A DNA stretch of 64,000 nt from Eledone cirrhosa (taxonomy: Eukaryota): positions 1 to 64,000 of the forward strand of contig CAXHJY010000099.1 in the NCBI GenBank assembly GCA_964016885.1, read 5' to 3'. Below are positions 905 through 43,490 of this stretch, piece after piece. Each line of letters opens with the position of its first letter. Within the stretch, counting starts at the first letter, position 1. The position numbers were made by a program, and so were the translations under genes. The notes beneath the pieces were generated by a model. The model saw only the letters and a list, made by a program, of their open reading frames with translations. It did no database searches and was not told the DNA's origin.

Positions 905-1258
905 AAACGAAAAATCAGTGATGCATCTGAACTCAATTTATTGTGTTACAAATGTTTCGCAGGCGCACAGCTCGAGACGTGATCATTGTGTGGATCTGTC
1001 TCATTCTGGACGCGCAGGTTCGACGGACACGTCTAATGATGTGAGAGAATGTGCTCCGAAATCATTAGACGTGTCCGTCGAACCTGCGGGTTCGGATTCA
1101 GACAGAACCACACAATGATCGCGCCTCGAGCTGTCCGCCGGCGAAACAATTGTAACACACAATAAATTGAGTTCAGATGCATCATACTATGCTCTGTAAG
1201 AGGATAGAGTGCTCAACCGGCGTACCGCCTATGGAAGCATCTTAGCTACCATCCGACA
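905..1258. mobile_element. Fold-back element (arms ~919-1040 / 1061-1183) with a right-side tail
   Basis: gatgcatctgaactcaatttattgtg... is mirrored by ...cacaataaattgagttcagatgcatc; flanked by microsatellites. Confidence 0.75.
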
Positions 1259-1261
1259 CAC

Positions 1262-2345
1262 ACATATATATATATATAATTGTATCTATATATAAATATT
1301 ATATATATATATATATATAATTGTATCTATATATAAATATTATATATATATATATATAATTGCATCTATATATAAATATTATATATATATATATATAATT
1401 GTATCTATATATAAATATTATATATATATATATATAATTGTATCTATATATAAATATTATATATATATATATAATTGTATCTATATATAAATATTATATA
1501 TATATATATATAATTGTATGTATATATAAATATTATATATATATATATAATTGTATGTATATATAAATATTATATATATATATATATATATATATAATTG
1601 TATGTATATATAAATATTATATATATATATATATATATATATATATATATATATATATATATATATATATATATATAATTGTATGTATATATAAATATTA
1701 AAATATTATATATATATATATATATATATATAATTGTATCTATATGTAATTATATATATATATATAATATTTATATATAGATACAATTATATATATATAT
1801 ATATATATATATATATAATATTTATGTATAGATACAATTATATATATATATATATATATATATATAATTGTATCTATACATAAATATTATATATATATAT
1901 ATATATATATATATATAATTGTATCTATATATAAATATTATATATATATATATAATTACATATAGATACAATTATATATATATATATATATATATATATA
2001 TAATATTTATATATAGATACAATTATATATATATATATATATATATATATATATATATATATATATATAATATTTATATATAGATACAATTATATATATA
2101 TATATATATATATATATATATATATATATATATATAATATTTATATATAGATACAATTATATATATATATATATAATATTTATATATAGATACAATTATA
2201 TATATATATATATATATATATATATATATATAATTGTATCTATATATAATTATATATATATATAATATTTATATATAGATACAATTATATATATATATAT
2301 ATATAATATTTATATATAGATACAATTATATATATATATATATAA
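1262..2345. repeat. Compound TA minisatellite (unit tataattgtatctatatataaatat + (TA)n) with orientation flips
   Basis: The unit and its reverse complement (atatttatatatagatacaatta) alternate in blocks. Confidence 0.9.
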
Positions 2346-2871
2346 TGTGGGTAATGTTAAATATTATCCAATTACAAGTATGACAATAGGTCAATGTAAA
2401 ATAACAAGTATATTACAGAGCCGAAATACATTATGAATAGCAATCAAGGAGTGTTTAAAACCAGTGTGTTTAAAATTGATTACGATCAGAGTATATATAA
2501 CATCAGACATTTGTCATAAGAACATTAGGAGGATACATAATATGGGAAGTAAGTATAAGTATCAACATTTATATAAGAAAAAATAGCAAAGGCAAAAGAA
2601 GCATAAGACAAATATGAGCATATAGATGCAATAAAATTATAAACATGGCGTTATAGAAAATTAAGTATAGTGCAAGACATATATCATAAGCATTACAAAA
2701 ATTTATAAAGATAATATATATATTACTTTATATATATATATATAACAAAGAAAGTGTGGTAAGAAACCAGGTGGACCAAAACGCACAAGCGTCGATCGGA
2801 TCTAGCTGTCGAAACTACCGGAGCTCAGCCGTCGGGGTCCTGGCTCTTTTCCTATACATATATCTATCTAT

Positions 2872-3205
2872 CTAAGGCGGGTAAAATTCCCAAGATCCAT
2901 GGACGAGTTCTCTCCAGCGGTCTCTGTCCCTCATTATCGCTGCCATATCATGCATCTCCAACAGACCAGTGGATGGGTGCTACACGAGAATGCTGAGAAT
3001 GGCTCTGAACATTAATCAGTATACACTGAGGATGAAAAACTCAGAGCTGTATGGGAGCCTCCCAAAAGTCAGCTCAAAAGTGACACAGAGGAGACTGAGG
3101 TTGGCTGGACATGCTCACCGACATCCAGAGTTGACATTGCACTCAGTGCTCCTTTGGGAGCCGCTACATGGACACACTAGAAGAGGAAGACCAAGGTTAA
3201 CATAC
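2872..3205. mobile_element. 5'-truncated RTE-type LINE with an internal inversion
   Basis: Plus strand 2969-3205 encodes DGCYTRMLRMALNI...RRLRLAGH...RRGRPRLTYI (RTE-like C-terminus). Minus strand 2872-2970 carries the downstream end ([26 protein letters not shown]...PP*). Confidence 0.75.
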
Positions 3206-3534
3206 ATATATATATATATATAACGAAGGAAATGTGATAAGGAACCAAATGGACCATAACGCACCAAAGTACTCAATACTTAGGATAGTAGAGTGGGTAA
3301 TATAATATATAATAATATAATATATAATAATATAATATATAATAATATAATATATAATAATATAATATAATATATAATATATAATAATATAATATATAAT
3401 AATATAATATATATATAATATTTATATAGACATATATATATAGACATATAATATATATATATATATATATATATATATATATATATATATATATATATAT
3501 ATATATATATATATATATATATATATATATAATA

Positions 3535-41300: not shown

Positions 41301-42645
41301 CACCGTTGAGGTAGGGTAGGTTCTTATGCATTTCATTAAGTAGGTATATGCCCACCAAATCGGTGACCTGCGCCGAGTCACTAGATCCCATGGTTATGTC
41401 GAAGTTGTTAAGCGTATCCTTACGGGTCCATAATTGTTCTTCAAATGTAATTATGGTTTTTCGGGCCGCAAGTATGACATCAATTTGGGATCTAGTCAGG
41501 TCACTATTGTTCATGGCCATAATTAGAGCCTTATTTAATAGGATAGGGGAAATAGAGGTGTAGTAAGAATTGATATCAATAAAGTATATATATATATGCT
41601 TATAATTAAATATAAAATGTAATAGCATTCTATATTAGGGATTATATTAGTACACATATAGCATATCTATTATGACATATTAACAGCTGTATAATCCTTC
41701 ATAACATATACCTTGTCCAGTAATGAATAGATAACAATCTAAAGAAACCTTTAATGTATGATAGTAGAATACACTGTATTTAAAATCAGGGTTATGTAAC
41801 AGAGATCCAATGGTATCACATTATATTGTGTATTAGAACAAAGAATTTTAATAACTGAATTGAACTTAATTAGCTAGATACCTCCCATTACGTATTAGCT
41901 CCTCTTATTCACTTCCGGAAATTAACGATAGAAAATGTAACGGTTGATCAAATATAGTCTATGAATATGAATTCATTAAGACTAATTTACAATCCATTGC
42001 TCTAACTAACTTAAAACACTCAATATAAACATTAACTAAAATTTAATCCAACATATGTCATGGAAAAGTCTGCAAAAACTGTATGTTTCTCAACACACAT
42101 TAATTCGAACACCATCAACATTCAACACCCACCATAGACTCTAATACATTAACATATTTGCTTCAACTGCAGTATTTATTCATCTATAATTGCATAATAG
42201 CTTTGCTTGTCTCCTTCTCATGTATATGACTTACGCAGTCACACTATCCACACGCCTGCATATGAATTGTTATCGCACTCTTCCTTTCTCAAAACTGCTT
42301 CCTCAATGCCTCTTTAATATTTGGACTATTCCCTTGTTTTAACTGTTGCATGTATTCCACTCCGTGCTTTTGATTTGAATTTGAACATGAATACAATTCT
42401 CGTAAAATATATGTCACATCCATTCCACCCTGTAAATACGCAACTGTTGCTCACAACATCAATTTATATGTATCTATATTATTGTTCGGTTTAATATATT
42501 ATTGTTCAGTTGAATAGGAGGTTAATTATATGTGCAAACATTGATAATGCTCCGATGACTCCAAACGAGAGTTTGGAAGAAACGATTGTCAGCTATTAAA
42601 TGATTTGAACACAACTTTGATAATTGTATAATTGTATAATTTATA
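38360..42645 (-). mobile_element. Penelope-like element (RT + GIY-YIG) with ~1.05 kb inverted terminal arms
   Basis: Minus-strand ORFs: DINSYYTSI, FDITMGSSDSAQVTDLVG, GLYRDY, NFLDATL, SNHP, CNCRTNRTCPL, YIGSTSNNFKTRY, CNLCLLE. Arms ~38485-39560 / 41590-42645. Confidence 0.93.
42546..42597 (+). ncRNA. Type I hammerhead, U4C core variant (mirror on minus 38524-38575)
   Basis: aatgct-CCGATGA-ctccaaac(gaga)gtttggaa-GAAAC-gatt-GTC-agctatt. Confidence 0.7.
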
Positions 42646-42687
42646 TATATATATATATATATATATATATATATATATATATATATA

Positions 42688-43290
42688 TAACGGCGATGAA
42701 TTAGTTTTGCGAGGTTTTTTTATATGAAATCGCGTGTCGAAACAAATGTTGTGTAATAAATAAAATTAAAAGAAAATAAAATAAAATAAAATAAAATAAA
42801 ATAAAATAAATAAATAAATAAATACACAAGCACAATAACAACAAACACATAAACACACATTAGTCACCCAATCACGAACACACATCACACATCAAACAAA
42901 ACACTATACACACACGCAAACGCATGCGCAAAGAAGACAAAATAAAATAAACAAACAAGCAAATTAATAAATAAATATATAGACAGACTGAATAAAAATG
43001 GCGTAGCCATACAATTCATCAGGAGGAAACAATAGCACCACTGACGATGTTGCAGATGTGCAACGAAAGATTTATGATAAACTATATATATGTGTTTGTG
43101 TCTATATTGTATCTGTATTATTTTTGACCGTCGGTCAGTCAATGGCAACATTGAGGACCGAGTATATTAGATTACCGATATAAAAGACACAGAAGCGAAA
43201 AGCGAAAACCAACCAAACAGTGAGTGTGTTCTGTTATTAATTCTGGCAATATTACACAAATATGACCCTCCCCAAGTATAACAATATATA
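42688..43290 (+). mobile_element. Single arm of the 14142-14826 family with its tail inverted at the left end
   Basis: 42990-43288 matches 14470-14768; 42690-42745 is the reverse complement of 14770-14824. Confidence 0.8.
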
Positions 43291-43294
43291 TATA

Positions 43295-43490
43295 TAGGAA
43301 AAAGTATGATCCCGACGGCAGAGCTCAAGCCGTTTCGACGGCTATTTCTGGTCCAGAAATAGCCGTCGAAACGGCTTGAGCTCTGCCGTCGGCGTCATAC
43401 TTTTTCCCTTTACCCACTCTACTACCCTAAGTATTGAGTACTCTGGTGCGTTATGGTCCATCTGGTTCCTTACCACAATTCCTTCGTTAT
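43295..43490. mobile_element. Short fold-back element; family fragments at ~2745-2855, 3222-3300, 4978-5015, 35075-35122
   Basis: cgacggcagagctcaagccgtttcgacggctatttctgg / ccagaaatagccgtcgaaacggcttgagctctgccgtcg, plus a tail. Confidence 0.8.

What the first reader, a model, noticed from the sequence alone, without database searches (positions are those of the whole stretch)
905..43490. Shared asymmetric geometry suggests twin-primed integration into (TA)n
Seen: in every fold-back, one arm runs ~70-150 nt further as a tail (1184-1258, 4218-4315, 6698-6787, 14769-14826, 17918-18021, 28866-28931, 30215-30280, 37574-37720, 38360-38484, 43410-43490). In nearly all, the other arm stops at an internal AT-rich word that merges into the TA tract (e.g. 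cattaatat|atat 19138, ataacta|tat 29717, cacttcta|tat 32097). Established: twin priming explains L1 inversions, and Penelope pLTRs have optional tails. Inference: both nicked strands of a self-complementary TA target prime reverse transcription, one at the RNA 3' end and one at a fixed internal site, and the two cDNAs join head to head.
Basis: partly seen in the sequence, partly recalled or inferred. Interest (0 to 1): 0.75.

Follow-up and report, generated by a model that had tools for sequence, protein, structure and literature searches.

The report
Penelope retroelements primed from both ends
These mirror-image repeats are insertions of Penelope-like jumping genes whose lopsided shape is already described, but nearly every insertion joins one short and one long fixed end, which likely means that both cut strands of the TA target start copying the element's RNA at two different internal sites.

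Summary
The fold-backs are head-to-head arms of endonuclease-bearing Penelope-like elements (PLEs), of Hydra type and Neptune type, inserted in (TA)n. The tails are family sequence. Three families were followed through the genome: 93 of 96 two-armed insertions pair one short end (S) with one long end (L) (53/55, 25/26, 15/15). A position-only replicate gave 16/16. Twelve insertions have an inverted arm made of tail only, which a cDNA folding back on itself cannot make. The two arms share template alleles, and inner junctions are enriched for microhomology. Twin target priming is therefore the best model (about 0.75). The long end is not the RNA 3' end, because tandem copies read through it. 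TA microhomology is enriched but not required (0 nt in 2 of 10 families; better TA words nearby are unused). In Hydra-type families S lies 3-10 nt before a conserved bulged hairpin. The architecture is published, and so are two in vitro start sites with extension of both strands. I did not find the one-S-plus-one-L rule in print. This scan reported the same reading before, on this genome and on shark DNA.

The parts
919..1263 (+). F1 fold-back 919-1184 with tail to about 1258-1263; short arm ends in non-TA DNA; carries the bulged tail hairpin
3534..3722 (.). F2, Hydra-type family H: inverted long arm with tail 3534-3628, short arm ends at 3722
3870..4313 (.). F3 fold-back, short end 3870, tail 4218-4313
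4364..4574 (.). F4, family H: tail 4364-4452, short end 4574; hammerhead-like core at the centre
6333..6787 (.). F5 fold-back, short end 6333, tail 6698-6787; hammerhead core motif in both arms
14143..14826 (.). F6, Neptune-type family N: near-perfect 627-bp fold-back, short end 14143, tail 14770-14826; hammerhead core motif at 14521(+) and 14391(-)
17919..19139 (.). F7, Hydra-type family: tail 17919-18022 on the inverted arm, short end 19139
23976..26669 (.). F10-family insertion with a short inverted left arm and a long right end, split by the nested family-H element
   Evidence: one search matches 23976-24031 to 26555-26610; sequence, read by eye
24404..26522 (+). Family-H element with RT/GIY-YIG remains; its inverted arm is tail only (24404-24489) and abuts the 5'-truncated short-ended arm: twin-priming geometry without fold-back
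28866..29717 (.). F8 fold-back, tail 28866-28931, short end 29717
30217..32097 (+). F9, Hydra-type (CxCX5C linker): 5'-truncated ORF on the short-ended arm; the tail is on the inverted arm
36021..36480 (.). F10 fold-back 36021-36327 with right-hand extension; left arm appears truncated and is not at TA
36505..37720 (.). F11 fold-back, short end 36505 (no in-phase microhomology), tail 37572-37720
38360..42644 (-). F12, Hydra-type with broken ORF on the minus strand; tail 38360-38484 on the direct arm, short end about 42644
43297..43490 (.). F13 fold-back, short end 43297 (no microhomology), tail 43408-43490
42691..43287 (.). Further family-N pieces: inverted tail 42691-42752 and a short-ended arm 42991-43287

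Best explanation
The fold-backs are insertions of Penelope-like retrotransposons in (TA)n whose two outer ends are one short and one long fixed family position, and they likely arise by twin target priming. Inferred steps: the element's GIY-YIG/RT protein, probably as a dimer, nicks both target strands about 9-13 nt apart. Each 3'-OH starts reverse transcription on the sense RNA, one at site S and one at site L, 43-149 nt further 3'. Both sites are internal and are probably placed by protein-RNA contacts (in Hydra-type families a bulged hairpin 3-10 nt behind the site), with 0-4 nt of TA pairing only fine-tuning them. The two cDNAs grow towards each other. If the L cDNA stops before S, the inverted arm is tail only. 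More often it also copies the region copied from S, by strand displacement on the same RNA or on a second copy from the same source, which gives a fold-back. The cDNA 3' ends then join through 0-5 nt of microhomology or a short insertion.
For: Pairing: S+L in 53 of 55 family-N insertions (2 L+L, 0 S+S; 31 of 32 where both arms carry the selecting 32-mer, binomial p=8e-9), 25 of 26 in family H (1 S+S) and 15 of 15 in family F7. A position-only replicate on C1 96.3-158.6 Mb gave 16 of 16. Tail-only inverted arms: 8 of 52 (N) and 4 of 25 (H), plus window 24404-24489. The S arm reaches further 5' in 34 of 52 N pairs and the L arm in 13. Arms share a template: 34 pairs, 13,575 columns, 101 differences, 161 shared non-majority alleles; L050 differs at 1 of 2,618 columns. 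Inner junction microhomology averages 1.9 nt against 0.63 by chance in 24 flush junctions. Both arms stop within 2 nt of each other in 5 of 52 pairs against 0.23 expected (one of the 5, L040, is rearranged). L037 shows a 9-13 nt duplication of target. Literature (PMC11167929, parts 1-2 of 4 read): a Poseidon PLE nicks and extends both strands in vitro, starts at two internal sites that bound the tail, and is predicted to be a dimer.
Against: All of this is read from finished insertions; no intermediate was seen. Three of 96 insertions break the rule (L016, L126, L183). About 17 S-only and 8 L-only family-N copies show no second arm (counted by eye). Most pairs overlap by tens to thousands of bases, unlike L1 twin priming (recalled), so displacement or a second template must be assumed. 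Shared alleles cannot separate one RNA molecule from two RNAs of one locus, or from later conversion. PMC11167929 found no difference in start site between strands and did not test pairing. The duplication rests on one locus; a search for more non-TA targets gave 1 match and no duplication. Family N lacks the Hydra hairpin, so its positioning signal is unknown.
Confidence: 0.75

Rival explanations
1. Self-priming: one cDNA (or an antisense RNA) folds back and copies itself, and the tail arises when the endonuclease resolves the intermediate. This is the published proposal for head-to-head PLE junctions.
For: Proposed in PMC3846280 (passages) and PMC8557442 (passages). Near-perfect palindromes exist: L025, L042, L044, L085 and window F6, and 10 genome-wide junctions near -310 to -330. 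Arms share alleles.
Against: It cannot give tail-only inverted arms beside a tail-less arm (12 cases plus window 24404). It cannot give S arms that reach further 5' than the tail-bearing arm (34 of 52), since a copy cannot hold what its template lacks. It may still explain some of the symmetric minority.
Confidence: 0.1
2. Two-ended priming as in the best model, but by two separate RNPs or by two repeats of a tandem RNA, with the asymmetry set by an asymmetric dimer. This is a variant of the best model that differs in the template.
For: Tandem arrays exist (L002-L004, L047, L048, L174) and would give two copies of each site on one RNA. Long overlaps would need no displacement.
Against: Arms share private alleles, arm lengths are weakly correlated (rho 0.32, p=0.02) and equal stops are enriched. 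All this is simpler with one template.
Confidence: 0.3
3. One reading: one primer anneals at the RNA's 3' end (through transcribed TA) and the other at an internal AT word chosen by base pairing.
For: Short-end microhomology is enriched. A source copy ending at L would be transcribed into TA.
Against: Tandem copies read through L. Family N uses two L positions. Microhomology is 0 in F11 and F13. Better TA words are unused. L037's long end joins non-TA DNA.
Confidence: 0.1
4. Two independent insertions into the same TA tract, or non-autonomous fold-back DNA transposons copied as a unit.
For: TA tracts are heavily reused; nested insertions occur in the window.
Against: Arms abut with no TA between them, share haplotype, and have different inner junctions in nearly every copy. 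Several copies hold RT/EN reading frames.
Confidence: 0.03

Closest known systems
EN+ PLE insertion unit with inverted 5'-truncated copy and one-sided tail (PMC3846280, passages; PMC8557442, passages and section 11)
   Same: Head-to-head inverted pLTR, tail on one end, partial tandems, hammerhead motifs, (TA)n targets for Hydra, Naiad and Neptune.
   Different: Those papers call the tail optional and 30-40 bp, and explain it by self-priming or endonuclease resolution. Here tails are 43-149 nt, S+L pairing is nearly strict, and tail-only arms are frequent.
Poseidon PLE of Anolis in vitro (PMC11167929, parts 1-2 of 4 read)
   Same: Both strands nicked and extended, AT-rich target, two internal RT start sites that bound the tail, predicted dimer.
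   Different: The paper does not link the two sites to the two ends of one insertion or to inverted arms, and reports no homology between start site and target. Here 2-4 nt of TA microhomology is common but not required.
Hydra clade of PLEs (PMC8557442, section 11 read)
   Same: Families H, F7, F9 and F12 have a C-terminal GIY-YIG and a CxCX5C linker; H also has DKT and RWR motifs, a 708-aa ORF and TA targets.
   Different: No tree was built here. A hairpin behind the start sites is not mentioned in the passages read.
LINE-1 twin priming (recalled; no paper on it read)
   Same: A second target nick primes internally on the RNA; cDNAs join head to head with microhomology. The tail-only cases match this geometry.
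   Different: In L1 the first primer uses the poly(A) end, the second site varies, and the arms barely overlap. Here both sites are fixed and internal and the arms usually overlap into fold-backs.

Membership tests
EN+ Penelope-like elements | Single ORF with RT and C-terminal GIY-YIG endonuclease | tested here: met
   Family N: 1120-aa frame, RVT_1 E=1e-4, below the curated cut-off; a first Pfam scan of 7 proteins at E 0.01 gave nothing. Family H: 708-aa ORF with 1600 homologues, the top one carrying PF01541. GIY-YIG-like motifs read by eye.
EN+ Penelope-like elements | Partial tandems forming pLTRs, inverted 5'-truncated copy, tail | tested here: met
   Units of 4136 nt (N) and 3258 nt (H).
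EN+ Penelope-like elements | Hammerhead motif in the pLTR | tested here: inconclusive
   A pattern scan found CTGANGA...GAAA cores in family N and several window arms but not in the family-H reference, whose core has A in place of T (and by eye). No hammerhead among the 150 Rfam rows shown of 330. Cleavage untested.
Hydra clade | CxCX5C linker, DKT, RWK-like motif, no CCHH, short element, (TA)n target | tested here: met
   Read by eye: L174 has all these motifs; CxCX5C in window F9, F12 and 24404 and in family F7. Unit length 3258 nt is slightly above the '<3 kb' described.
Hydra clade | Placement in the clade by RT phylogeny | not tested
   No reference PLE set was at hand.
Neptune clade (family N) | CX2-5CxxC linker and CCHH motif in a C-terminal EN | tested here: met
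   CX4CxxC linker and C-C-H read in the L047 translation; the last H lies past a frameshift in L047 and was read from L048 DNA by eye. Nematis not excluded; no tree.
L1-type twin priming | First primer at the RNA 3' end | tested here: not met
   Tandem copies read through the long end. RNA ends themselves could not be mapped.
L1-type twin priming | Two target-primed cDNAs from one template joined head to head with microhomology | tested here: met
   Indirect, from genomic structure.
L1-type twin priming | Target-site duplication from staggered nicks | tested here: inconclusive
   One locus (L037, 9-13 nt); hidden in TA elsewhere.

The most novel reading that the evidence does not exclude
Twin priming is the normal route of PLE integration across clades. 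One dimeric RT-endonuclease holds a single RNA at two fixed internal sites and loads one onto each nicked target strand. The trailing enzyme then displaces the leading cDNA, so that the inverted pLTR and the one-sided tail are obligatory products. In the Hydra clade, paired bulged hairpins mark the two sites.
Probability: 0.45. Interest if true: 0.75.

Novelty: new variant of a known kind. Interest (0 to 1): 0.52.

Why it matters
How PLEs, the closest retroelement relatives of telomerase, make their inverted and tailed insertions is named as an open question in PMC8557442 and PMC3846280 (passages read). The one-S-plus-one-L rule, tail-only arms and shared arm haplotypes turn it into sharp predictions for the existing in vitro system (PMC11167929). 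An RT that writes from both ends of a cut at RNA-defined sites would also interest gene-insertion work. The elements and their outline are known, which limits the surprise.

Tried and rejected
A DNA search of the genome with the F6 end returned nothing because common words are skipped; patterns were used instead. Rfam gave only miRNA-like noise in the rows shown. Pfam missed 7 of 7 proteins at E 0.01. PDB gave two weak RT hits, E 0.04 and 0.11. The protein atlas gave no result. Expression: no RNA holder listed, so RNA ends stay unmapped. Empty site: no joint skipping the L037 element in 4 runs; absence proves nothing. More non-TA targets: 1 match, no duplication. The idea that symmetric junctions carry a cap-derived G was dropped, because the 10 centres are mixed and several resolve at a natural TATA palindrome. 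Microhomology as the sole site selector was rejected. Whether the L016 exception is a recombinant was checked and not settled. PMC13282606 (passages) and bioRxiv 10.64898/2026.07.22.740005 (part 1 of 5) added nothing on junctions. Supplements of PMC8557442 and PMC11167929 were not read and may show such junctions or hairpins; Arkhipova 2006 was not read.
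Full report
Observation. Self-alignment of the window with simple repeats masked gives 13 local fold-backs. The short arm runs into alternating TA in 11 of 12 fold-backs scored; F1 is the exception. In-phase microhomology at the short end averages 2.5 nt against 1.0 by chance in 10 families (p=0.0016) but is 0 in F11 and F13. Eleven of 12 tails match other loci among 191 fetched, and the F7 tail recurs in the loci. Exact genome counts: 3,666 for the F6 arm 32-mer, 3,247 for its tail 30-mer, 32,934 for the F2/F4 30-mer, and 977 for the F7 38-mer at up to 2 mismatches. 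Opposite-strand joints appear in raw short reads of other individuals, for example 101 reads from 7 starts, so the shape is unlikely to be an assembly artefact.

What the elements are. F9, F12 and 24404-26522 hold RT and GIY-YIG remains. Family N (F6) has a 4,136-nt tandem unit and a 1,120-aa frame with a C-terminal endonuclease and a CX4CxxC linker, so it is Neptune-type (weak RVT_1 hit). Family H (F2, F4, 24404) has a 3,258-nt unit and a 708-aa ORF with DKT, RWR and CxCX5C motifs, the marks of the Hydra clade (PMC8557442 section 11). F7, F9 and F12 share the CxCX5C linker. Clades rest on motifs read by eye; no tree was built. The inverted truncated copy, the one-sided tail and the TA bias are published PLE features.

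End points. I call the short end S (0) and the long end L. In family N, S lies about 24 nt into the ORF; L is at +58/59 or +43/45; minor S variants lie at -2, -4 and -7. In family H, L is at +88. Tandem copies read through L in both families, so L is an internal site and need not be the RNA 3' end. Alternating AT words at -100 (13 nt) and +25 (5 nt) are longer than those at S (4 nt) and L (3 nt) but were not used as ends in the scored insertions. Base pairing therefore does not choose the sites on its own.

Pairing rule. The first 100 matches of two family-N patterns formed 111 clusters. I examined all 31 two-strand clusters and 52 of the 80 one-strand clusters. Fifty-five insertions had both outer ends in view: 53 S+L, 2 L+L, 0 S+S (hand-curated table). 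In the subset chosen without regard to the tail, 31 of 32 were S+L (p=8e-9 against independent choice). L016 and L018 share one inner junction and are one event later duplicated, one copy S+L and one L+L. Dropped before counting: about 17 S-only and 8 L-only copies with no second arm, and copies whose far end lay outside the stretch. Family H gave 25 of 26 (one S+S, L183) from 46 loci. Family F7 gave 15 of 15 inverted pairs; one further fetched region was not an inverted pair. From match positions alone, C1 96.3-158.6 Mb, which I had not fetched for family N, gave 16 of 16 S-plus-read-through pairs. The whole range gave 36 such pairs, 0 S+S and 3 others, two of them tandem arrays whose outer end is an S variant.

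Two primers, not one fold-back. The inverted arm is tail only in 8 of 52 family-N pairs (13-40 nt) and 4 of 25 family-H pairs, and in window 24404-24489. The S arm reaches further 5' in 34 of 52 N pairs, the L arm in 13, and they are equal in 5; in H the numbers are 14, 8 and 3 of 25. A strand copied from another cannot contain what its template lacks, so self-priming (PMC3846280) fails for most copies. Each arm is attached to target DNA at its cDNA 5' end, as expected if both nicks prime. One insertion at the edge of a TA tract (L037) duplicates 9 non-TA bases plus up to 4 TA bases, which fits two staggered nicks; its long end has little or no pairing to the target.

One template. In 34 pairs with at least 40 shared columns, arms differ at 101 of 13,575 columns and share 161 non-majority alleles, some seen in no other copy. 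L050 differs at 1 of 2,618 columns (nearest other copy 0.002, median 0.006), L126 at 0.008 (nearest 0.023). Arms stop within 2 nt of each other in 5 of 52 pairs against 0.23 by permutation; one of the 5 is rearranged, and three of the rest, like window F6, lie near -312 to -326. Of 43 inner junctions, 24 are flush or overlapping, with mean microhomology 1.9 nt against 0.63 by chance; 19 carry insertions or were not parsed, two of them through a trimming fault of the script. This favours one RNA read by a leading S primer and a trailing L primer, but two RNAs from one locus, a tandem RNA, or later conversion are not excluded.

A candidate positioning signal. Nine of 11 window families have a helix of the form RCTC-stem-loop-stem-bulge-GAGY starting 3-10 nt behind S, with different inner stems that stay paired; shuffled tails predict 0.07. 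The pattern was devised from these same tails, so that number overstates significance. F5 has a near match and family N has none. Earlier notes of this scan pointed to a second copy behind L. I confirmed one 4 nt behind L in family H, in 2 tandem loci, and could not test other families. Family N obeys the pairing rule without this hairpin, so the rule is wider than the signal.

Comparison and novelty. PMC11167929 (parts 1-2 of 4) shows in vitro that a Poseidon PLE nicks and extends both strands and starts at two internal sites that bound the tail, but it does not connect the two sites to the two ends of one insertion. Searches for 'twin priming' with 'Penelope' (3 listings, none on this by title or abstract start) and for both-strand priming since 2023 (1 listing) found no statement of the pairing rule; two searches gave the papers cited. 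Subscription papers and supplements were not seen. The elements are members of known clades and the shape is known; the rule and the mechanism it implies are a new variant. This scan has reached the same reading on other pieces of this genome and on shark DNA; those notes are not counted as evidence.

Verdict. Observation confirmed; interpretation partly supported. Twin priming at two fixed internal sites about 0.75; single RNA with displacement as the general PLE route about 0.45; interest 0.52.

Noticed in passing
window 23976-26669 against 36328-36480: A family-H element sits inside the short internal TA tract of another PLE's extension. The intact relative has about 14 nt of TA there; the filled site has about 56 and 32 nt. 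TA tracts may grow during or after insertion.
   Followed up: no
L047 and L048, ORF residues about 215-385: The Neptune-type ORF holds a long in-frame asparagine-rich insert, like the N-rich inserts described for rotifer Penelopes in PMC3846280.
   Followed up: no
family H, about -78 to -30 from S (window 4500-4545): A type I hammerhead-like fold with A in place of the core U. Many arms end at -40 to -47 or -66 to -77, past the predicted cut site, as if uncut RNA is copied and RT pauses at the fold.
   Followed up: partly
window 14451-14461; G000:C1:280819612: Two symmetric family-N junctions carry a similar short T-rich/GG insert at the centre; origin unknown.
   Followed up: no
L016, L018, L050 (C1 36.03-36.15 Mb): One insertion is duplicated 9.5 kb apart with different right ends; one end and its satellite flank resemble another insertion 100 kb away, suggesting recombination between arms.
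   Followed up: partly
L040; L129: L040 has an internal inversion inside an S+L insertion; L129 is one S+L unit repeated four times about 290 bp apart.
   Followed up: no
window 8023-11253: A broken LINE-like element with AP-endonuclease and RT frames followed by TA; a piece of its 3' end lies at 507-565.
   Followed up: no
window 59963-64000: Two tandem, 95% identical copies of a non-LTR element with RT and a C-terminal restriction-like endonuclease motif (read by eye).
   Followed up: no
window 15713-24065 and 27175-28727: Kilobase arrays of interrupted TA whose phase flips at several points; 28333-28386 and 28780-28833 are a perfect inverted copy of a LINE fragment split by such an array.
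   Followed up: no
window 15413-15600, 45730-49090, 58115-58593: A SINE-like repeat family of about 190 nt, at least 8 copies; one copy interrupts an arm in L126.
   Followed up: no
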